From Escherichia phage outra, in sequence record MN850645.1: a DNA stretch of 64,000 nucleotides; one strand, written 5' to 3'. Positions 19,284 to 64,000 of the stretch are shown in pieces (the first letter of the stretch is position 1; every line of letters begins with the position of its first letter). The notes below the pieces were generated by a model, which made no database searches, was not told the DNA's origin, and worked only from the letters and a program-made list of their open reading frames with translations. The position numbers were made by a program, and so were the translations under genes.

Positions 19284-19313
19284 TTGACAACATAGCTAGT
19301 TATTTGCTAAGAT
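19284..19313 (+). promoter_or_regulatory. sigma70-like promoter (TTGACA-N18-TAAGAT)
   Basis: Upstream of ORF 19344 and the tRNA array. Confidence 0.45.
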
Positions 19314-19617: not shown

Positions 19618-19693
19618 GGTTCCATAGCTCACTGACGAGAGCGCACACCTCATAAGTGTCGAGGGCAGGGATTGTAACCCTGGGGAACCACCA
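19618..19693 (+). tRNA. tRNA, anticodon CAT (Met or Ile-lysidine)
   Basis: Hand-folded cloverleaf: acceptor GGTTCCA, D-loop with GG, anticodon loop CTCATAA, encoded CCA; coordinates +/- 2. Confidence 0.6.
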
Positions 19694-19724
19694 TTTAAAA
19701 GGAGGTGCTATGCATCTCCTATAT

Positions 19725-19810
19725 GCAAGTGTGGTGGAATTGGTGATACACATTGTGCTTAAAACGCAACGCTTAAATGATTGAGGGTTCGAATCCCTCC
19801 ACTTGCACCA
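19725..19810 (+). tRNA. tRNA-Leu (TAA), type II
   Basis: Acceptor GCAAGTG/CACTTGC, anticodon loop CTTAAAA, long variable arm, T-arm GAGGGTTCGAATCCCTC, CCA. Confidence 0.65.
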
Positions 19811-19812
19811 AC

Positions 19813-19921
19813 GCCTAGTAGGGTATTTGGTAATTCCGAGGCCATCAAAGCCTGAAAAATATGTTAGACCGCTTTGTCTAACTAAATACGAAATATGGTT
19901 CGATTCCATAACTAGGCTCCC
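19813..19921 (+). ncRNA. atypical ~105-nt tRNA-like element (possible anticodon UCA); may be a pseudo-tRNA
   Basis: Perfect 7-bp acceptor pairing GCCTAGT/ACTAGGC and canonical T-arm TATGGTTCGATTCCATA, but oversized internal region with extra 6-bp hairpin; putative anticodon loop CATCAAA is non-canonical (A at position 33). Confidence 0.3.
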
Positions 19922-19953
19922 AATTTAAATAGTAATTTTTTAATAAAAATATC

Positions 19954-19982
19954 TTGACATTTACTTAGTTTTTTGTTATAGT
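19954..19982 (+). promoter_or_regulatory. sigma70-like promoter (TTGACA-N17-TATAGT)
   Basis: Near-consensus hexamers ~12 nt upstream of next tRNA-like gene. Confidence 0.5.
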
Positions 19983-19993
19983 CATTATGAAAA

Positions 19994-20075
19994 CGGGGTG
20001 TATCTCACCTGACTTCTAATCAGGCGTTAACCGAGTAATTGGAGTATGCAGGTTCGAATCCTGTCACCCCGGCCA
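19994..20075 (+). tRNA. tRNA-like gene, possible Arg (TCT); structure atypical
   Basis: 7-bp acceptor CGGGGTG/CACCCCG, T-arm GCAGGTTCGAATCCTGT, CCA, and clean anticodon arm CCTGA-CTTCTAA-TCAGG; D-arm spacing could not be folded canonically by hand. Confidence 0.35.
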
Positions 20076-20093
20076 AAAAGTTTTAAAAACTAC

Positions 20094-20122
20094 TTGACAA
20101 GCAAGATAGTTTTATGTTAGAT
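20094..20122 (+). promoter_or_regulatory. sigma70-like promoter (TTGACA-N17-TTAGAT)
   Basis: Upstream of tRNA-Ser. Confidence 0.4.
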
Positions 20123-20138
20123 TTAAAGTATGGTAACT

Positions 20139-20228
20139 GGAAGGTAGGGCGCAGCGGTGCGCAACCAGGTTTGAACCCTGGCCCATTGTAGCGATACGGT
20201 GATGGTTCGACTCCATTATCTTCCTCCA
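20139..20228 (+). tRNA. tRNA-Ser (TGA), type II
   Basis: Acceptor GGAAGGT/ATCTTCC, anticodon arm CCAGG-TTTGAAC-CCTGG, long variable arm, T-arm GATGGTTCGACTCCATT, CCA; 3' end anchored to track ORF 20199. Confidence 0.7.
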
Positions 20229-20246
20229 AATTCTCTTAGGAGCTTT

Positions 20247-20399
20247 ATGAATTATAAAACTATTGGACAGGTTGTTACCGGAGTTAAGATTGTAAATAAT
20301 AAAGTTGTTTATGAGTATTCTAATCTTCAACAATCTGAAGATGGTAAGAATATTCGTATGGTAAAAGCAGAACAAAAAGATTCCGGTTGTTTTGAATAA
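20247..20399 (+). CDS. hypothetical small protein (50 aa)
   Basis: Track ORF 20199..20399 starts inside tRNA-Ser; internal ATG at 20247 with RBS TAGGAG is the more plausible start. Confidence 0.3.
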   Translation: MNYKTIGQVVTGVKIVNNKVVYEYSNLQQSEDGKNIRMVKAEQKDSGCFE

Positions 20400-20407
20400 T
20401 TAAGAAC

Positions 20408-20493
20408 GGTAGATTGGTGAAATGGTAGCCACAACAGTTTGCTAAACTGTCGTCGGAAACGGCGTGTAGGTTCAAGTCCTACATCTACCGCCA
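20408..20493 (+). tRNA. tRNA-Ser (GCT), type II
   Basis: Acceptor GGTAGAT/ATCTACC, anticodon arm ACAGT-TTGCTAA-ACTGT, T-arm GTAGGTTCAAGTCCTAC, CCA. Confidence 0.65.
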
Positions 20494-20664
20494 AGTTATC
20501 TTTAATGTAGCTTGTTGCTCTTAGTTGCTTGGTGTAACTTTTTGGAAGGATGGCTGCAACCATCTTACTTTAATAGAGTAAACTTTCGGCAGATGGCCCC
20601 CCACCATCTTACCGATACCTCATAGTTAGTGGTGCGAACACTGGCTATTTTAAAGATAATTTAT

Positions 20665-20740
20665 ACATCGTTAGCTTAGTTGGTAGAGCAAGGGGCTTTT
20701 AACTCCAAGGTCGAAGGTTCGAATCCTTCACGATGTACCA
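20665..20740 (+). tRNA. tRNA-Lys (TTT)
   Basis: Acceptor ACATCGT/ACGATGT, D-loop AGTTGGTAG, anticodon loop CTTTTAA, T-arm GAAGGTTCGAATCCTTC, CCA. Confidence 0.65.
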
Positions 20741-20745
20741 AACAC

Positions 20746-20832
20746 GTAGGTATCGCATAGCGGCAATTGCTGGAGACTGTAAATCTCCTGCCCTTCGGGG
20801 CTTCGTTGGTTCGAGTCCAACTACCTGCACCA
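20746..20832 (+). tRNA. tRNA-Tyr (GTA), type II
   Basis: Anticodon arm GGAGA-CTGTAAA-TCTCC, long variable arm, T-arm GTTGGTTCGAGTCCAAC, CCA. Confidence 0.65.
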
Positions 20833-20839
20833 AATTAAA

Positions 20840-20924
20840 GATGGATTGGCCTAGTGGTTGGGCGACGGACTGTTAATCCGTGAACGAAAGTTCTAGCAAG
20901 GTTCAAATCCTTGATCCATCGCCA
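20840..20924 (+). tRNA. tRNA with anticodon GTT (Asn-like) and an unusually long variable arm
   Basis: Acceptor GATGGAT/ATCCATC, anticodon arm ACGGA-CTGTTAA-TCCGT, variable hairpin GAACGAAAGTTC, T-arm CAAGGTTCAAATCCTTG, CCA. Confidence 0.5.
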
Positions 20925-21003
20925 AATAGTGCTTGTAGAGTTAATAGAAACCTCTAGAATTTTCTAGAATTGTAGGTATCAAATCCTACCAAGCAAATAT
21001 TTT

Positions 21004-21078
21004 GCTCCTATCGTATAACGGCTATTACGGTTGCCTTGTAAGCAACTTATCAGGGTTCGAGTCCTTGTGGGAGCACCA
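21004..21078 (+). tRNA. tRNA-Thr (TGT)
   Basis: Acceptor GCTCCTA/TGGGAGC, anticodon arm GTTGC-CTTGTAA-GCAAC, T-arm CAGGGTTCGAGTCCTTG, CCA. Confidence 0.65.
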
Positions 21079-21095
21079 ATTTTAACTCTAAAGGA

Positions 21096-21425
21096 GTGTA
21101 TGTGACAGAAAAAGAGTTAGAGAAATATTTTAATATCAATGTTTTCGATGGTTTTGATGATATCGAAGATGTTGAAAGATATTATGAAGTAGAGTTAGAT
21201 AAGGATAACATTGTAATTCTTTCTGCCACTTATGATTGTGCATATTATGAAGGTGAATCTCACGTTTATTTTTATGATATGAAAACATCTTTGTTTTATG
21301 AAGTACACGCATATCATTGTTCTTGTTATGGCTTAGAAGGTCAGTGGGAACCTGAAGAAATAGGTGATTTGGACTTTACTATTGCATATCTAAACAGACG
21401 TGGTGCATCTAATATTTTAAAATAA
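21096..21425 (+). CDS. hypothetical protein (109 aa)
   Basis: ORF track; GTG start adjacent to AAGGAG; HCSCYG Cys/His segment. Confidence 0.45.
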   Translation: MYVTEKELEKYFNINVFDGFDDIEDVERYYEVELDKDNIVILSATYDCAYYEGESHVYFYDMKTSLFYEVHAYHCSCYGLEGQWEPEEIGDLDFTIAYLNRRGASNILK

Positions 21426-21439
21426 ATATCAAAAGCCTC

Positions 21440-21469
21440 TTGACAAAGAGGCTAATAATATGTTAGAGT
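21440..21469 (+). promoter_or_regulatory. sigma70-like promoter inside an 8-bp inverted repeat (AGCCTCTTGACAAAGAGGCT)
   Basis: TTGACA lies in the loop of a perfect palindrome; -10-like TAGAGT about 18 nt downstream; upstream of tRNA-Gly. Confidence 0.45.
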
Positions 21470-21480
21470 AATATTGTTAA

Positions 21481-21555
21481 GCGGGTATAGTGTTAATGGT
21501 AGCATATGAGGTTTCCACCCTCCAGGTGCAGGTTCAAGTCCTGTTACTCGCTCCA
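21481..21555 (+). tRNA. tRNA-Gly (TCC)
   Basis: Acceptor GCGGGTA/TACTCGC, anticodon loop TTTCCAC, T-arm GCAGGTTCAAGTCCTGT, CCA. Confidence 0.6.
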
Positions 21556-21655
21556 AGATTATTTAAATGGAATCGCTAGAGAAAATTTCTCTTTTCGCTC
21601 ATGGTTTTCTCCTTCAAACTCTAGCGGTTCTTTTTAAGTGATTTTTTAGTTTTAT

Positions 21656-21730
21656 TGGAGATTAGCCTAGTGGGAAGGCAACGGCCTTTGAAGTCGTGAT
21701 GACTAGGTTCGATTCCTAGATCTCCAGCCA
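21656..21730 (+). tRNA. tRNA-Gln (TTG)
   Basis: Acceptor TGGAGAT/ATCTCCA, anticodon loop CTTTGAA, T-arm CTAGGTTCGATTCCTAG, CCA. Confidence 0.65.
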
Positions 21731-21737
21731 ATATTTA

Positions 21738-21813
21738 CAGTGCGTAGCGCAGTTGGTAGCGTGGGAGCTTTGGATGCTTCGGGTCGCAGGTTCGAGTCCT
21801 GCCGCACTGACCA
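21738..21813 (+). tRNA. tRNA-Pro (TGG)
   Basis: Acceptor CAGTGCG/CGCACTG, D-loop AGTTGGTA, anticodon loop TTTGGAT, T-arm GCAGGTTCGAGTCCTGC, CCA. Confidence 0.65.
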
Positions 21814-21818
21814 AATTT

Positions 21819-21893
21819 GCAGAGATAGCTGAGACGGATTAGTGCTACCCTGAAAAGGTAGAAAGGATGGATCGTTACCATCTCTCTGCACCA
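21819..21893 (+). tRNA. tRNA-Phe (GAA), non-canonical T-loop
   Basis: Acceptor GCAGAGA/TCTCTGC, anticodon arm CTACC-CTGAAAA-GGTAG, T-arm GATGG-ATCGTTA-CCATC, CCA. Confidence 0.55.
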
Positions 21894-21970
21894 AATAACA
21901 CCATCCAAGGAGTAGACTTGGTTAACTGTCAATAGCACATTGAGGCTTCTTACAGTGGTGTATTTATTAT

Positions 21971-22055
21971 GGCTAAGTGGTGGAATGGTATACACGATAC
22001 GCTTAGAACGTATTGCCCCAAGGGATTGTGAGTTCGAGTCTCACCTTAGCTACCA
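21971..22055 (+). tRNA. tRNA-Leu (TAG), type II
   Basis: Anticodon arm ATACG-CTTAGAA-CGTAT, long variable arm, T-arm GTGAGTTCGAGTCTCAC, CCA. Confidence 0.65.
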
Positions 22056-22143
22056 TATCTAAGAGATATCATAGGGTTTGCAACGGATATCTACCGTCCT
22101 GTTAAGGATACCACGCCAAGACGGGTTATAAAGGGTTAGCCAT

Positions 22144-22219
22144 TGATAGTGTGAAGCTGGCGTTTCGAGTGCTTTCATAAGGCATTGCGAGAAGAGTTCG
22201 ATTCTCTTACTATCAACCA
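22144..22219 (+). tRNA. tRNA, anticodon CAT (Met/Ile2 class)
   Basis: Acceptor TGATAGT/ACTATCA, anticodon loop TTCATAA, T-arm AAGAGTTCGATTCTCTT, CCA. Confidence 0.55.
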
Positions 22220-22234
22220 AATTACTACAGATTG

Positions 22235-22313
22235 CGCGGGATAGAGGAGTCTGGTCGTCCTCGCCAGTTTCATATGCTGGAGATCATCGGTTCGAATCCG
22301 ATTCCCGCCTCCA
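22235..22313 (+). tRNA. tRNA, anticodon CAT; unpaired 1:72 position (initiator-like feature)
   Basis: 5' CGCGGGA vs 3' TCCCGCC leaves a C:C mismatch at 1:72; anticodon arm CCAGT-TTCATAT-GCTGG; T-arm ATCGGTTCGAATCCGAT, CCA. Confidence 0.5.
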
Positions 22314-22371
22314 TTAAATACCTCCCTTCTGGTGTAATGATTAAATTGCATTGACACTTCAAGGAACTCAT

Positions 22372-22454
22372 AGCCGGGTAGATTTAAAAGAGTATGGTAC
22401 TCAATATGGCTCCAAACCATAGATCAAGGGGTTCGATTCCTCACCTTGCTGCCA
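22372..22454 (+). tRNA. tRNA-Trp (CCA) candidate; boundaries uncertain
   Basis: Clean anticodon arm TATGG-CTCCAAA-CCATA and T-loop GGGGTTCGATTCC with CCA end, but acceptor pairing is imperfect by hand. Confidence 0.35.
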
Positions 22455-22459
22455 ATTAT

Positions 22460-22535
22460 TGTGGTATCGTACAGATGGTTAGTACACTCGACCGATAATC
22501 GAGAAACAACGGTTCGATTCCGTTTACCACGACCA
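22460..22535 (+). tRNA. tRNA-Ile (GAT)
   Basis: Acceptor TGTGGTA/TACCACG, anticodon arm CTCGA-CCGATAA-TCGAG, T-arm AACGGTTCGATTCCGTT, CCA. Confidence 0.65.
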
Positions 22536-61503: not shown

Positions 61504-61687
61504 ATTTTCTCCTATCGTGTCCACTCTTTGTGTTGTTCTACATACTCAAGCATTTCATTATATAGTGCTTTTTCATATAATGCGGCGTTAGTTTCTTACT
61601 ACCAGGTAGCGTACTCTCGCCTTCCAAATCATTAATACCTTCACCATATACGGTAAGCATAAAAACTCCTTTAAAATCAAAGAGATG

Positions 61688-64000
61688 TCAGTGACAAGAC
61701 GCCCATGAGTTACCAACATCGTAACCAGCAGTGAGAGGTACATTAAGATTGTAATACTCACCAGCTTTATTAACAGCGATAGATGCTAATTCTCCAGCAC
61801 GACTGTAGGCTGTAAACCAACCACCTTTCGGAGATTCATGTACGTTAGCCCAAATCTTGCCAGTACGTTTCTCTTCCTCTTCTTTCCAGGCATTAACTTT
61901 ATCCAAACATTCTTTATCAATTTTCTTTTGTTCTTCTGGATCATCAACTTGAGTCCAACCTAAAGATTCTTTAGAGAACCATTTAAAATGCACCAGATCA
62001 CGAGTTACTTCAAGCTGTGCTTCATCGTGATATGCAATCATTTGTTGAACGAATGACTTATTTTTCCAGTCATCAACAAAAAAGTCAACAGCTAATCCTT
62101 CTTCTTCGATAAGATCGTCGTAGATAACCATTGCTCTTTTTGCACAAATAACACCACCACTCTGGAACAGAGAGTTAAGTATTGCGTGTGCAGATCGTGT
62201 AGGTACTTTCCTACCATCAATACCCAGAATGTATTTCTTACCTGTTTTAACCCAAAAGTCATGCAGACGTTCTTTAAGAAGCGCAAGAGGTTTTGCAGCT
62301 TCCCAGAAAGCATCGTATACAAGCTGTCCTGTATACATATCACTACCTATAGTTTTTGCTACTTTTGCAGCTTGAGCACCATAAGTAATACCATACTTAA
62401 CAGATTTAGCAGGGCTTCGTTCAAACTTACGACCAATAGTGTCAGAAATACGTCGAGCCATCATTGTATGAACGTCATTAGGTTTTTCCAATAACAGAGC
62501 ATTACAATATTCGTGTGGTTCCTGCTCGTACCGCCAACAGTAGTGTGATTCTATTTTTGCCTCAAGAGAATCAAAGTCATAACCAATTTGGAAGTATTTT
62601 GGAACTTCTACACCAAATAAGTTACGCATTTCATATCCGTACAGAGATGTTACACGTGGGATATTTGCTACTAGCCTATGTTTCATACGAGACGTAGCTG
62701 CATCACACGTTGCAGCAGGAGTTGGTATACGACCATCAGCCCTTACTGCTGCCAGATAACCTTTATCGTAATCCTCTTCATCTTCTTCCCAATCAGCACC
62801 ACCCCCTAGAATAGAGTTCCTACGGTGTTTATACGTAAGATACTGCACAATCTGCGTAGCATAAGGAAACTTTTCACCTAGTGCTTCCAAGTTAGGACAA
62901 ATATCTTTCTCTTGCCCTTTTGTAAAGGAAGGGTTCGTAAGCACTTTAACACCACGACCTTTAGCTTTAGCAATACGATCTCTTAGTTTCCATTCCAAAG
63001 TTTCTGGTGTGCACTCCAGATGATCACATCTGTCCTGGCAGAAGTTAGATGCTAATGTTTGATCAACATAGTCACGAATAGCTTTCTCCATTTGTGCTTC
63101 ATCTTTCTTAATCTTAGTGCCAGATTTAAGAGTGATATCTTTATCTTTATATTCAGATGGACTCCAACCTAAACCAACTAACCAGTTTTTAATATGTGTA
63201 GTGTCGTCTAAAGTAGCAGGTACTGTAGGATCACAAATAGGTTCTTCTGCTGGAATAGGTAGTTTAAACTCTTTACCTAATGCAAATAGCCACCAACCAT
63301 CTTCTTTTTGTACAAGTTCACCAGAATGTTTCTCTGCAAACTTTATCATGTTACTTGAAGGTTCACCATTCTTTTTAAACTGTAGTTTAGGTGGAATGAA
63401 TGATTTCAAATAACCTTTAGTAGCAGGTTTAGGAGGTAGCACAGGTTCTGCCTCTAAACGACATGCTTCCATTCGAGCATCCAGATCACGAATATTATCT
63501 TCTGCTTGTTTCATATTGAAAGCAAAGCCACGGTGCTCTTGACGTGTAATAATATCAGCTACACGTTGTTCTAAGTTAAATGGTTCAGACCACTTGTTAT
63601 AATCACCCCACTCTTCCATCAAATAACGGAACACTGCGGTGTTAGCTTTGTTATCGTAAATACAGTAATACAGCATATCTGCTGCAAATGTTTTAAATCT
63701 TTCAGTTTCAGGAATGTTTTTTCTAAAATCAATTTTAACATCCCCTCCAGCTTTCTTAGATAACTCTGCCAGACTATGACCACCGAAGCGATCAGGGTTT
63801 AGTGTCTTACTTAAGATCATAGTATCACAAATTTCAATGTTACTATTACCCCAAGTATTGTACTTAATACTGTAGTTGAGTTTAAAAAATAATTTAATTG
63901 CCAGTAAGTCAAAGTTAATGATGTTATGTCCAACTACTTTGGTAATTTTATAGTTTGAATTACCTTTAAATTTACCTGTTCCATTTACAAAATCAGGAAA
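61688..64000 (-). CDS. DNA polymerase, family A (T7 gp5-like); N-terminus lies beyond window end
   Basis: DRFGGHSLAEL (cf. T7 KRFGSHALEAWG), motif A YDFDSLEAKI, motif B KYGITYGAQAAK, motif C AYHDEAQLEV, C-terminus NSWASCH (cf. T7 NWAICH). Frame is open upstream of track start 63820, with a VVGHNIINFD-like Exo II segment near 63900-63930. Confidence 0.8.
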   Translation of the reverse strand, partial: FPDFVNGTGKFKGNSNYKITKVVGHNIINFDLLAIKLFFKLNYSIKYNTWGNSNIEICDTMILSKTLNPDRFGGHSLAELSKKAGGDVKIDFRKNIPETERFKTFAADMLYYCIYDNKANTAVFRYLMEEWGDYNKWSEPFNLEQRVADIITRQEHRGFAFNMKQAEDNIRDLDARMEACRLEAEPVLPPKPATKGYLKSFIPPKLQFKKNGEPSSNMIKFAEKHSGELVQKEDGWWLFALGKEFKLPIPAEEPICDPTVPATLDDTTHIKNWLVGLGWSPSEYKDKDITLKSGTKIKKDEAQMEKAIRDYVDQTLASNFCQDRCDHLECTPETLEWKLRDRIAKAKGRGVKVLTNPSFTKGQEKDICPNLEALGEKFPYATQIVQYLTYKHRRNSILGGGADWEEDEEDYDKGYLAAVRADGRIPTPAATCDAATSRMKHRLVANIPRVTSLYGYEMRNLFGVEVPKYFQIGYDFDSLEAKIESHYCWRYEQEPHEYCNALLLEKPNDVHTMMARRISDTIGRKFERSPAKSVKYGITYGAQAAKVAKTIGSDMYTGQLVYDAFWEAAKPLALLKERLHDFWVKTGKKYILGIDGRKVPTRSAHAILNSLFQSGGVICAKRAMVIYDDLIEEEGLAVDFFVDDWKNKSFVQQMIAYHDEAQLEVTRDLVHFKWFSKESLGWTQVDDPEEQKKIDKECLDKVNAWKEEEEKRTGKIWANVHESPKGGWFTAYSRAGELASIAVNKAGEYYNLNVPLTAGYDVGNSWASCH

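What the first reader, a model, noticed from the sequence alone, without database searches (positions are those of the whole stretch)
19813..19921. Oversized tRNA-like element with a possible UCA anticodon
A perfect 7-bp acceptor pairing (GCCTAGT/ACTAGGC) and a canonical T-arm enclose about 105 nt, far longer than a normal tRNA, with an extra 6-bp hairpin (GTTAGAC...GTCTAAC). The best anticodon-like loop, CATCAAA, would put UCA at positions 34-36, which reads UGA. This could be an opal-suppressor or Sec-like tRNA, a tRNA with an insertion, or a decayed pseudo-tRNA; it cannot be resolved by eye.
Basis: inference. Interest (0 to 1): 0.45.

Follow-up and report, generated by a model that had tools for sequence, protein, structure and literature searches.

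The report
Oversized phage tRNA with UCA anticodon
The flagged stretch is a real, structurally conserved but non-standard tRNA gene in the tRNA cluster of a phi92-like E. coli phage; it belongs to a previously uncurated family of extra-long phage tRNAs, it is not a selenocysteine tRNA, and whether it actually reads the UGA stop codon is still open.

Summary
Window 19813-19918 folds into a 106-nt cloverleaf: a 7-bp acceptor stem, an extended D stem, a 4-bp anticodon stem with loop CAUCAAA, a 39-nt variable region with a 7-bp hairpin, and a canonical T arm. ARAGORN and Rfam at gathering thresholds miss it. Relatives occur in Vequintavirinae, other Stephanstirmvirinae, one Schitoviridae phage and metagenomic phage contigs, and none in bacterial genomes. 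Across 17 distinct sequences 98.4% of cells are paired and 12 pairs show compensatory changes, including a tertiary D-loop/T-loop pair. A covariance model built without the window lineage scores the element at 80.1 bits (E=7.5e-18). Ordinary class II tRNAs score 17-23 bits. It is not tRNA-Sec: the acceptor/T arrangement is 7/5, the discriminator is U73, and position 33 is A. The sub-threshold tRNA-Sec score is what ordinary long-arm tRNAs also get. Sibling members carry other loops: UUU with A73, UAU, or UCC/GCC in odd 6/8-nt loops. The "anticodon" is therefore a swappable part of a special scaffold. The phage shows no UGA recoding. Twenty-five of 55 sister genomes have deleted the element through two independent deletions. 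Best reading: a processed, chargeable accessory tRNA, either a weak UGA reader or a non-decoding mimic.

The parts
19813..19819 (+). acceptor stem, 5' strand (GCCTAGT); G1 lies 2 nt after the CCA of tRNA-Leu(UAA)
   Evidence: All 7 pairs are kept in 17 sequences and 4 pairs show compensatory changes.
19820..19821 (+). positions 8-9 (A, G); A8 replaces the usual U8
   Evidence: A8 is invariant in the family.
19822..19837 (+). D arm: GGTATT-TGGT-AATTCC (6-bp stem with one U.U mismatch, 4-nt loop); it can also be drawn as a 4-bp stem with an 8-nt loop
   Evidence: helix 2: 99% paired, 3 compensatory pairs. The D-loop G (column 18) covaries with the T-loop C (column 94): G:C in 13 sequences and U:A in 4.
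19838..19838 (+). G26-like junction base (invariant)
19839..19853 (+). anticodon arm: AGGC-CATCAAA-GCCT, a 4-bp stem and a 7-nt loop with C32 A33 U34 C35 A36 A37 A38 (TCA at 19845-19847)
   Evidence: The loop is invariant in 13 UCA-type sequences. Stem pair 27:42 switches between A-U and G-C.
19854..19862 (+). G followed by an A-rich single-stranded 5' flank of the variable region (GAAAAATAT); G(A/U)AAA is conserved family-wide
19863..19882 (+). variable-arm hairpin GTTAGAC-CGCTTT-GTCTAAC (7 bp); sequence and length differ between lineages but a hairpin is always present
   Evidence: There is a compensatory change within the L021/L061 lineage. The hairpin reads as a terminator-like site on the minus strand.
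19883..19893 (+). single-stranded 3' flank TAAATACGAAA (family consensus (U/G)(A/G)AAUACAUA)
   Evidence: ATAC is invariant.
19894..19910 (+). T arm TATGG-TTCGATT-CCATA
   Evidence: helix 5, 100% paired, 2 compensatory pairs.
19911..19917 (+). acceptor stem, 3' strand (ACTAGGC)
19918..19921 (+). discriminator U73 followed by CCC; CCA is not encoded here, whereas relatives outside the genus encode UCCA
19618..19810 (+). upstream tRNA-Met(CAU) and tRNA-Leu(UAA), probably on the same precursor transcript
   Evidence: A promoter-like site lies at 19284-19313 and the next promoter-like site only at 19954-19982, after the element.

Best explanation
Shown, about 0.9: the element is a genuine tRNA-fold RNA gene under selection. 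It is the Justusliebigvirus member of a phage-specific family of 97-108-nt tRNAs. The family has a 7/5 acceptor/T helix, A8, an extended D stem with a 4-nt loop, and a G19:C56-type elbow pair. It also has a 4-bp anticodon stem between two G residues and a 30-40-nt variable region made of G(A/U)AAA, a hairpin and AAUACAUA.

Inferred from context: it is transcribed with tRNA-Met and tRNA-Leu(UAA). RNase P cuts it 2 nt after the Leu CCA, the 3' end is trimmed, and host CCA-adding enzyme completes it.

Inferred, about 0.4: it is aminoacylated. U73, G1:C72, C2:G71 and C35 resemble the E. coli GlyRS and CysRS identity sets, and the long arm with U73 could also attract SerRS. On the ribosome it would act as a low-efficiency, dispensable reader of UGA, inserting an ordinary amino acid and not selenocysteine. 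In this reading its deviant loop (A33, short stem) is the same kind of deviation as C33 in the phage's own tRNA-Ile, plausibly selected to escape host enzymes that attack anticodon loops. It does not recode the phage, because UGA remains a normal stop.
For: Structure and family:
- Covariation supports the fold.
- The tertiary pair switches from G:C to U:A.
- The leave-out model scores the element at 80.1 bits against at most 19.2 bits for the window's ordinary tRNAs, and other members score 100-115 bits.
- No match was found in 185,579 species genomes or in 5,426 E. coli genomes.

Transcription context:
- The element always sits 2-5 nt behind the CCA of another tRNA, inside a tRNA array.

Decoding:
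- The loop has 7 nt with A37.
- A33-U34-C35-A36-A37 is invariant in 7 lineages, even where positions 32 and 38 change (L064).
- The rV5-type sibling has a canonical U33-UUU-A37 loop plus A73, the LysRS-type combination. It passes the Rfam tRNA gathering score at 35.5 bits and is rV5's only Lys-type tRNA.
- Seunavirus and Mydovirus orthologues keep NCC (UCC, UCC, GCC, UCC) together with U73, G1:C72 and C2:G71.
- Non-U33 occurs in an otherwise canonical, conserved tRNA-Ile(GAU) of the same phages.
- A canonical-scoring tRNA(CUA) sits in the tRNA clusters of the metagenomic contig L062, which also carries the element, and of cultured Klebsiella Stephanstirmvirinae phages.
- 4-bp anticodon stems are compatible with decoding and can favour UGA reading (PMC13092985).
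Against: - U33 is near-universal in decoding tRNAs (own knowledge), and in the loci held here 260 of 275 distinct tRNAs have U33.
- Syntenic orthologues have 6-nt (or 8-nt) loops that no standard decoder has.
- No UGA avoidance or recoding is seen. Stops are TAA 53, TGA 8 and TAG 5, every TGA-ending ORF counted there has a back-up stop within 2-20 codons, and no convincing read-through gene was found.
- The element moved between unrelated phage families, so a specific read-through target gene is unlikely.
- In this genus CCA is not encoded and varies (UCCC or UUCA), the D stem has a U.U mismatch, and 25 of 55 genomes lost the element through two different deletions.
- There is no direct evidence of transcription, charging or decoding.
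Confidence: 0.4

Rival explanations
1. It is a non-decoding tRNA mimic. The RNA is processed, and perhaps charged, like a tRNA, but it is built not to work in the ribosomal A site. Its role would be to bind, saturate or resist a host factor that recognises tRNA shape plus a particular anticodon loop, for example an antiphage tRNA nuclease or a tRNA-modifying toxin. Alternatively it could donate an amino acid outside translation.
For: - All UCA and NCC members have A33 or C33.
- Syntenic orthologues in Seunavirus and Mydovirus have a 5-bp stem with a 6-nt loop (CAUCCA, CAGCCA, CCUCCA).
- The scaffold, including its single-stranded flanks, is conserved while the loop identity changes (UCA, NCC, UUU, UAU).
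- Seunavirus, Mydovirus and the window phage already carry a canonical tRNA-Gly(UCC).
- The distribution is accessory: recurrent deletions and transfer into a Schitoviridae phage.
- The same clusters hold other loop-aberrant tRNA-like genes.
- There are precedents for tRNA-like RNAs that are not used in translation (PMC5389517 section 16; B. cereus tRNA-Other, PMC3399842).
- Phage tRNAs have been proposed to be shaped by host tRNases (PMC10264068).
- Retron Eco2, which nicks tRNA acceptor stems, restricts the three phage groups that carry the family, among others (PMC12916289). This is a lead only.
Against: - No target is known for a UCA-type loop; the only host UCA tRNA is tRNA-Sec.
- The rV5-type sibling looks like a working tRNA-Lys.
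- The discriminator co-varies with the anticodon, as expected for real synthetase substrates.
- C33 in tRNA-Ile shows that a non-U33 base does not by itself exclude decoding.
Confidence: 0.35
2. In this genus it is a decaying remnant. The family was functional in the ancestor, but the Justusliebigvirus copy is now drifting towards loss.
For: - It has the lowest Rfam score of all members (29.4 against 37.6-39.1 bits).
- The D stem has a U.U mismatch.
- The encoded CCA is lost and three different 3' trailers occur among near-identical phages, while all 16 canonical tRNAs of the window encode CCA.
- 25 of 55 genomes carry one of two independent deletions.
Against: - Lineage-specific compensatory changes keep all four helices: acceptor pairs 4:69 and 5:68 (tRNA numbering), the outermost anticodon-stem pair, and two T-stem pairs.
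- The loop and flank motifs are intact.
- The model score is 80 bits.
- 30 genomes retain the full element.
- Phage tRNAs lacking an encoded CCA can still be completed by the host enzyme (own knowledge, phage T4).
Confidence: 0.12
3. It is a selenocysteine tRNA or a mimic that hijacks the Sec pathway.
For: - The anticodon is UCA and the loop differs from E. coli selC (CUUCAAA, own knowledge) only at position 33.
- It has a 6-bp D stem with a 4-nt loop and a long extra arm.
- The best Rfam hit is RF01852.
Against: - The acceptor/T arrangement is 7/5, not 8/5.
- The discriminator is U73, not G73.
- The score is below the gathering threshold in all members (29-39 against 47).
- RF01852 gives similar scores to ordinary class II tRNAs.
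- Siblings with the same scaffold carry UUU, UAU or NCC loops.
- There is no similarity to any E. coli genome sequence.
Confidence: 0.02
4. It is not a tRNA-like RNA at all. It could be a tRNA-Asn with an intron, an antisense terminator, or a chance palindrome.
For: - ARAGORN in intron mode calls tRNA-Asn(gtt) with an 18-nt intron.
- The variable hairpin plus the T-run scores as a minus-strand terminator.
Against: - The GTT triplet and the hairpin sequence are not conserved in any other lineage.
- No minus-strand gene needs a terminator here.
- Covariation supports the four-helix cloverleaf and not these alternatives.
Confidence: 0.01

Closest known systems
Bacterial tRNA-Sec (selC, Rfam RF01852)
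   Same: UCA anticodon followed by AAA, a 6-bp D stem with a 4-nt D loop, a long extra arm, and an unusually long molecule.
   Different: The acceptor/T helix is 7/5 rather than 8/5. The discriminator is U73 rather than G73, and position 33 is A rather than U. The variable hairpin is separated from the core by 8-11-nt single-stranded flanks. The score is below the gathering threshold. There is no Sec machinery in the phage context. Siblings have non-UCA loops.
Laboratory opal suppressors derived from tRNA-Gly (glyT UCC to UCA) and tRNA-Cys(UCA) (own knowledge; selC* tRNA-Cys with U73 and UCA in PMC5389517)
   Same: U73 with a C35-A36 anticodon. G1:C72 and C2:G71 as in E. coli tRNA-Gly. Orthologues carry the Gly anticodons UCC or GCC.
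   Different: Class II-like body with a 39-nt variable region, A33, a 4-bp anticodon stem, and a natural occurrence conserved in phages.
allo-tRNAs (Mukai et al., PMC5389517)
   Same: Long variable arm, G73/U73-type discriminator, very diverse anticodons including stop anticodons, and some members apparently not used in translation.
   Different: allo-tRNAs are defined by 8/4 or 9/3 acceptor/T helices and this family is 7/5. They are mostly from Acidobacteria and soil, not from enterobacterial phages.
Ordinary class II tRNAs (Ser, Leu, Tyr) of the same phages
   Same: Cloverleaf with an extra arm, location in the same tRNA operons, and an encoded CCA in most members.
   Different: The family model separates them by about 60-90 bits. 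Also different are the long single-stranded flanks around the extra arm, A8, the 4-nt D loop, the 4-bp anticodon stem and the non-U33 base.
Non-decoding tRNA-like RNAs (B. cereus tRNA-Other, PMC3399842; staphylococcal cell-wall tRNA-Gly, own knowledge)
   Same: tRNA fold with features that disfavour ribosomal use, and possibly charged.
   Different: No sequence relation, and no non-translational role has been shown here.

Membership tests
tRNA-Sec (bacterial) | 13-bp acceptor/T helix in an 8/5 arrangement | tested here: not met
   7-bp acceptor and 5-bp T stem in all 17 sequences.
tRNA-Sec (bacterial) | G73 discriminator | tested here: not met
   U73 in all UCA-type members.
tRNA-Sec (bacterial) | UCA anticodon in a canonical loop (CUUCAAA) | tested here: inconclusive
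   UCA and AAA are present but position 33 is A.
tRNA-Sec (bacterial) | 6-bp D stem with a 4-nt loop | tested here: met
   GGUAUU-UGGU-AAUUCC with one U.U mismatch in the window, and 6 of 6 pairs in relatives. The two inner U-A pairs never vary, so a 4-bp stem with an 8-nt loop cannot be excluded.
tRNA-Sec (bacterial) | Rfam RF01852 gathering score of 47 bits | tested here: not met
   29.4 bits in the window and 37.6-39.1 bits in relatives. Ordinary class II tRNAs get 29-41 bits.
tRNA-Sec (bacterial) | Serylation, conversion by SelA, delivery by SelB to a SECIS-linked UGA | not testable with these tools
Canonical tRNA as called by standard finders | ARAGORN default call or Rfam RF00005 score of at least 29 bits | tested here: not met
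   ARAGORN makes no call and there is no gathering-level hit. Relaxed ARAGORN gives inconsistent calls. The rV5-type sibling does pass at 35.5 bits.
Opal suppressor tRNA (functional class) | 7-nt anticodon loop with UCA at 34-36 and a purine at 37 | tested here: met
   Loop CAUCAAA, invariant in 13 sequences.
Opal suppressor tRNA (functional class) | U33 for the U-turn | tested here: not met
   A33 in all UCA-type members.
Opal suppressor tRNA (functional class) | Aminoacylation and UGA read-through in vivo | not testable with these tools
   The only indirect evidence is that UGA is used as a normal stop (8 of 66 ORFs) and no convincing read-through gene was found.
allo-tRNA | 8/4 or 9/3 acceptor/T helix | tested here: not met
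   7/5.
tmRNA | tRNA-like domain plus a tag reading frame | tested here: not met
   No ARAGORN tmRNA call. The only Rfam tmRNA hit lies on the neighbouring tRNA-Leu 3' end.
Phage long-variable-arm tRNA family defined here (Vequintavirinae, Stephanstirmvirinae and others) | Match to covariance model R1, built from 17 sequences without the window lineage | tested here: met
   80.1 bits, E=7.5e-18, full length 1-105.
Phage long-variable-arm tRNA family defined here (Vequintavirinae, Stephanstirmvirinae and others) | A8; D arm NNNNUU-NGNN-AANNNN; G; 4-bp anticodon stem; G(A/U)AAA; hairpin; AAUAC; GGUU(C/A)GAYUCC; G1:C72 and C2:G71 | tested here: met
   All are present. The window deviates only in the 3' flank (AAUACGAAA instead of AAUACAUA) and in one D-stem pair.
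Phage long-variable-arm tRNA family defined here (Vequintavirinae, Stephanstirmvirinae and others) | Location inside a phage tRNA array, next to tRNA-Leu(UAA) and tRNA-Arg(UCU) | tested here: met
   Window order is Met-Leu(UAA)-element-Arg(UCU)-like. The related orders are listed.

The most novel reading that the evidence does not exclude
rV5-like, phi92-like and some N4-like phages carry a dedicated class of tRNA mimics. These have an L-shaped, CCA-ended body with a giant, motif-flanked extra arm and deliberately non-canonical anticodon loops (A33 or C33, 6-nt loops, 4-bp stems). Their loop is swapped between lineages (opal-type, Gly-type, Lys-type) to match whichever host tRNA-directed immunity or toxin they must absorb or outlast. 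The window element would be the opal-type (UCA) version of such a counter-defence RNA and not a translation component.
Probability: 0.3. Interest if true: 0.8.

Novelty: new variant of a known kind. Interest (0 to 1): 0.58.

Why it matters
Phage tRNA genes are usually explained by codon usage or, more recently, as replacements for host tRNAs destroyed by antiphage nucleases. This work defines a conserved family that breaks several near-universal tRNA rules at once: A33, A8, a 4-bp anticodon stem and a 30-40-nt motif-flanked extra arm. The family is nonetheless held together by compensatory evolution across at least three phage taxa. It is missed or inconsistently labelled in GenBank as tRNA-TERM, tRNA-Lys, tRNA-OTHER, tRNA-???, or not annotated at all. 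If it decodes, it is a natural stop-codon reader in standard-code lytic coliphages, and it shows that A33 tRNAs can work. If it does not decode, it is a new type of tRNA mimic, probably tied to the conflict over host tRNA pools. Natural deletion alleles in sister phages (for example JohannJBalmer, Paula and phi92) make the question directly testable. The covariance model would also allow consistent annotation of well over a hundred deposited phage records.

Tried and rejected
- Relaxed ARAGORN runs (lower thresholds, intron mode, tmRNA mode) gave no call or mutually inconsistent calls: tRNA-???(aata), a minus-strand tRNA-Leu, and tRNA-Asn with an intron. None is supported by homologues.
- One pattern scan was mis-specified by one base and found only a chance hit.
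- The anticodon-free patterns added only chance hits or already known loci.
- The genome-contig scan returned 24 chance matches, all of them GCCATCAAAGC upstream of ordinary tRNAs or inside coding sequence.
- I looked for Watson-Crick pairing between the two single-stranded flanks of the variable region, and for a kink-turn-like arrangement. The AUGU/ACAU pairing seen in Hena1 and L062 is not kept in UTK0002, L021 or the window, so I rejected it.
- An alternative loop register takes the loop U as the U-turn base, which gives CAA or CCA anticodons. I considered it less likely because it does not fit the discriminator, and the 4MG variant (G at that position) breaks it.
- The read-through search in the window found only one TGA followed by a long open extension (the 710-aa ORF at 63820..61688, 49 codons). 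That extension looks like a separate small ORF.
- Seven literature searches found no description of this family. The rV5 genome paper lists six tRNAs and not this one.
- I did not search for a protein partner, because sister genomes differ at this locus by the 100-127-nt deletion alone.

Full report
**Context.** The window comes from a phi92-like E. coli myovirus (Justusliebigvirus, Stephanstirmvirinae), with 97-99% identity to vB_Eco_PATM, inny, VEcB and others. Positions 19618-22535 hold a plus-strand tRNA array. ARAGORN tRNAs there. Rfam at gathering thresholds, one of which (19994-20072) ARAGORN misses. Neither tool calls 19813-19921.

**Observation.**
- Acceptor stem: GCCUAGU (19813-19819) pairs with ACUAGGC (19911-19917).
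- T arm: UAUGG-UUCGAUU-CCAUA.
- Extra hairpin: GUUAGAC/GUCUAAC, which is 7 bp rather than 6.
- Anticodon arm: AGGC-CAUCAAA-GCCU.

I add several points.
- The D arm is GGUAUU-UGGU-AAUUCC.
- Positions 8-9 are A and G.
- The anticodon stem has only four pairs, framed by G and G.
- Position 33 is A.
- The discriminator is U and is followed by CCC, not CCA.
- The extra hairpin is separated from the core by single-stranded AAAAAUAU and UAAAUACGAAA.

The single-sequence fold is only modestly better than shuffles (z=-2.78).

**Homologues.** blastn found the element in 30 close relatives. It also found copies at about 70% identity in the Erwinia Henunavirus phages Hena1 and pEp_SNUABM_01, where it is deposited as tRNA-TERM / tRNA-sup(tca). 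A further copy lies unannotated in Salmonella phage UTK0002 (Schitoviridae). Pattern scans of viral and metagenome collections added four more UCA-type lineages: the L015/L021/L053 group, L057, L062 and L064. The same pattern gave only chance matches in one genome per bacterial species. blastn found nothing in 5,426 complete E. coli genomes. The RNA is therefore phage-specific.

**Structure.** On 13 distinct UCA-type sequences the cloverleaf is 98.9% paired. Eight pairs show double (compensatory) changes, against 0-1 for registers slid by 1-3 columns.

A search anchored on the conserved 3' flank plus the T arm found siblings with other loops. blastn with those siblings showed the scaffold to be widespread in Vequintavirinae: rV5 and about 120 relatives, PVP-SE1, GAP31, 4MG, KB57, Mydo and Ro1. 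GenBank labels for these copies range from nothing to tRNA-Lys, tRNA-OTHER, tRNA-TERM and tRNA-???(atcc).

On 17 family sequences 98.4% of cells pair and 12 pairs are compensatory. These include the tertiary elbow pair. Where the D loop reads UGGC the T loop reads UUCGAUU, and where the D loop reads UGUC the T loop reads UUAGAUU, so a G:C pair becomes U:A. RNAalifold predicts the same four helices de novo.

A covariance model built from 17 sequences without the window lineage finds the window element at 80.1 bits, E=7.5e-18. The best ordinary tRNA in the window reaches 19.2 bits. Other members score 100-115 bits and other class II tRNAs 19-23 bits. The fold and the family membership are therefore established.

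**Why it is not tRNA-Sec.**
- The best Rfam hit is RF01852, but at 29.4 bits against a gathering score of 47. Relatives score 37.6-39.1 bits.
- The same model gives 29-41 bits to ordinary Tyr- and Ser-type tRNAs of related phages. The hit reflects the long arm, not Sec identity.
- The defining 8/5 helix and the G73 discriminator are absent, and siblings with the same body carry non-UCA loops.

**Why it is not a random insertion or a decayed pseudogene.** The variable region is the family hallmark. It consists of G(A/U)AAA, 2-4 nt, a hairpin whose sequence varies but stays paired, and then (U/G)(A/G)AAUACAUA. The hairpin shows compensatory changes between Hena1 and L062 and within the L021/L061 lineage.

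**Anticodon loops across the family.**
1. CAUCAAA: the window and six other lineages.
2. AAUCAAG: L064.
3. A 5-bp stem with a 6-nt loop, or a 4-bp stem with an 8-nt loop. The loop is CAUCCA in PVP-SE1, GAP31, KB57 and KE22, CAGCCA in 4MG, and CCUCCA in Ro1.
4. UUUUUAA in the rV5 group.
5. UUUAUAA in Av-05.

Counted from the 3' side of the loop, types 1-3 read N33 (A or C), then U/G34, C35, A/C36 and A37. That gives UCA in types 1-2 and UCC, UCC, GCC, UCC in type 3, all of them glycine anticodons.

G1:C72 and C2:G71 are invariant in the family, and U73 is present in all UCA/NCC-type members. From my own knowledge these, together with C35 and C36, form the E. coli GlyRS identity set. U73 with C35-A36 is also most of the CysRS set.

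The rV5 type combines UUU with A73, the LysRS-type combination. It has a canonical U33, passes the Rfam tRNA threshold, and is the only Lys-type tRNA of rV5, whose genome paper missed it. A discriminator that co-varies with the anticodon suggests that members are real synthetase substrates. Mukai et al. also note that a long arm with G73 or U73 suggests SerRS recognition.

**Can the UCA member decode?**
For:
- The loop has 7 nt with A37.
- Positions 33-37 are strictly conserved even where 32 and 38 change.
- 4-bp anticodon stems are known in decoding tRNAs and favour UGA reading in some organisms (PMC13092985).
- The window's own high-scoring tRNA-Ile(GAU) has C33, as do its orthologues in Vequintavirinae. 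These phages therefore tolerate, and perhaps select, non-U33 tRNAs. This fits the idea that phage tRNAs carry loop changes to escape host tRNases (PMC10264068).
- The tRNA cluster of metagenomic contig L062, which also carries the element, and those of cultured Klebsiella Stephanstirmvirinae phages also contain a canonical-scoring tRNA(CUA).

Against:
- A33 itself.
- The odd-sized loops of the syntenic Seunavirus and Mydovirus orthologues, in phages that already carry a canonical tRNA-Gly(UCC).
- The absence of any sign of recoding. Among 66 non-nested ORFs of at least 80 codons, stops are TAA 53, TGA 8 and TAG 5. TGA is not rarer than TAG, and every TGA-ending ORF counted there has a second stop within 2-20 codons.
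- One further ORF, which starts at the window edge, ends in TGA and is followed by a long open frame (49 codons after the 710-aa ORF). That stretch looks like a separate small ORF.
- The element has moved between unrelated phage families, so a dedicated read-through gene is unlikely.

**Dispensability.** Of 55 Justusliebigvirus records, 30 keep the element and 25 lack it. Two different deletions are responsible.
- A 127-nt deletion leaves the first five bases (phi92, Paula, alia and one VEcB assembly).
- A roughly 100-nt deletion lies between the two CTAG tetranucleotides of the acceptor arms (JohannJBalmer and three others).

In this genus the encoded CCA has been lost and the 3' trailer varies (UCCC or UUCA), whereas every canonical tRNA of the window encodes CCA. 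The element is thus accessory here and may be under relaxed selection. Even so, lineage-specific compensatory changes keep every helix intact.

**Expression context (inferred).** G1 lies 2 nt after the CCA of tRNA-Leu(UAA). A promoter-like site precedes the small ORF and tRNA-Met (19284-19313). The next strong promoter-like site (TTGACA-17-TATAGT, 19954-19982) follows the element. In every lineage the element sits 2-5 nt behind another tRNA. This implies release by RNase P and 3' trimming, with CCA addition by the host enzyme in this genus.

**Verdict.** The Sec and pseudogene readings are rejected or disfavoured. The element is a member of a distinct, previously uncurated family of long-armed phage tRNAs.

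Function is not shown. I put about 0.4 on a chargeable, weak and dispensable UGA reader with a nuclease-evading loop. I put about 0.35 on a non-decoding tRNA mimic or decoy, about 0.12 on a copy decaying in this genus, and very little on tRNA-Sec or non-tRNA readings. Seven full-text literature searches found no description of the family, but the library is incomplete.

Noticed in passing
window 19994-20072: A second non-standard tRNA sits right after the element. It has an anticodon arm CCUGA-CUUCUAA-UCAGG (UCU, Arg-type), no D arm in the usual place, and a small hairpin CCGA-GUAA-UUGG after the anticodon arm. It has G73 and an encoded CCA. Rfam tRNA scores 38.6 bits but ARAGORN is silent. 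It is labelled tRNA-Undet or tRNA-OTHER in some relatives, has its own strong promoter-like site (19954-19982), and is kept in phages that deleted the UCA element.
   Followed up: partly
window 22371-22453: An unannotated, degenerate tRNA-Trp-like sequence lies between tRNA-Met and tRNA-Ile. Its anticodon arm is UAUGG-CUCCAAA-CCAUA (CCA), with G73 and an encoded CCA. About 9 extra nucleotides precede the D arm and the acceptor stem has a C.U mismatch. Rfam tRNA gives 22.9 bits, below threshold, and ARAGORN is silent.
   Followed up: partly
window 22460-22535 (and orthologues in L001, L053, L067, L070-L074): The canonical-scoring tRNA-Ile(GAU) (58 bits) has C33, giving loop CCGAUAA. This is conserved in phi92-like and rV5-like phages. 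Only 15 of 275 distinct tRNAs in the loci held here lack U33.
   Followed up: partly
L075:1423-1498, L077:223-298, L071:1424-1498, L070:2831-2900: Seunavirus and Mydovirus phages carry further loop-aberrant tRNA-like genes. One lies directly 5' of their family member, with loops AAGAUUC, ACGAUUC or the 6-nt ACGAUA. GAP31 carries another at L070:2831-2900, in the same tRNA array but not adjacent to the family member (6-nt loop UCGUCA, annotated as a pseudo tRNA).
   Followed up: no
L062:2791-2865; L084:2808-2882 (Klebsiella phage phi1_175008); also KP2025 and KP13-26: A tRNA with the amber anticodon CUA scores 61.9 bits with Rfam tRNA in L062, and is annotated tRNA-Pyl or tRNA-Sup-CTA in the Klebsiella phages. 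It sits in the tRNA cluster of Klebsiella Stephanstirmvirinae phages that appear to use the standard code. phi1_175008 lacks the UCA element.
   Followed up: partly
window 61538-61690 (minus strand): The 710-aa ORF at 63820..61688 ends in TGA and is followed in frame by 49 sense codons before a TAG. The extension contains an internal Met and may be a separate small ORF.
   Followed up: partly
GenBank records MT932211.1 and OZ035773.1 (L082): Two assemblies both named VEcB differ at this locus. One has the element and the other carries the 127-nt deletion, so the loss may happen on short time scales or during propagation.
   Followed up: no
hits H72-H74, H96-H97 and H188-H191 (MG0656xx records): Records deposited as Campylobacter jejuni phages are 98.5-100% identical, over the short query segments used here, to E. 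coli rV5-like and phi92-like phages. They are probably mislabelled hosts or contaminants.
   Followed up: no
window 19284-19313, 19954-19982, 20094-20123: Near-consensus sigma-70-type promoter-like sites (TTGACA, 17-18 nt, TAnnnT with an upstream TG) precede individual tRNA genes or small groups. This suggests several short transcription units inside the tRNA cluster.
   Followed up: no
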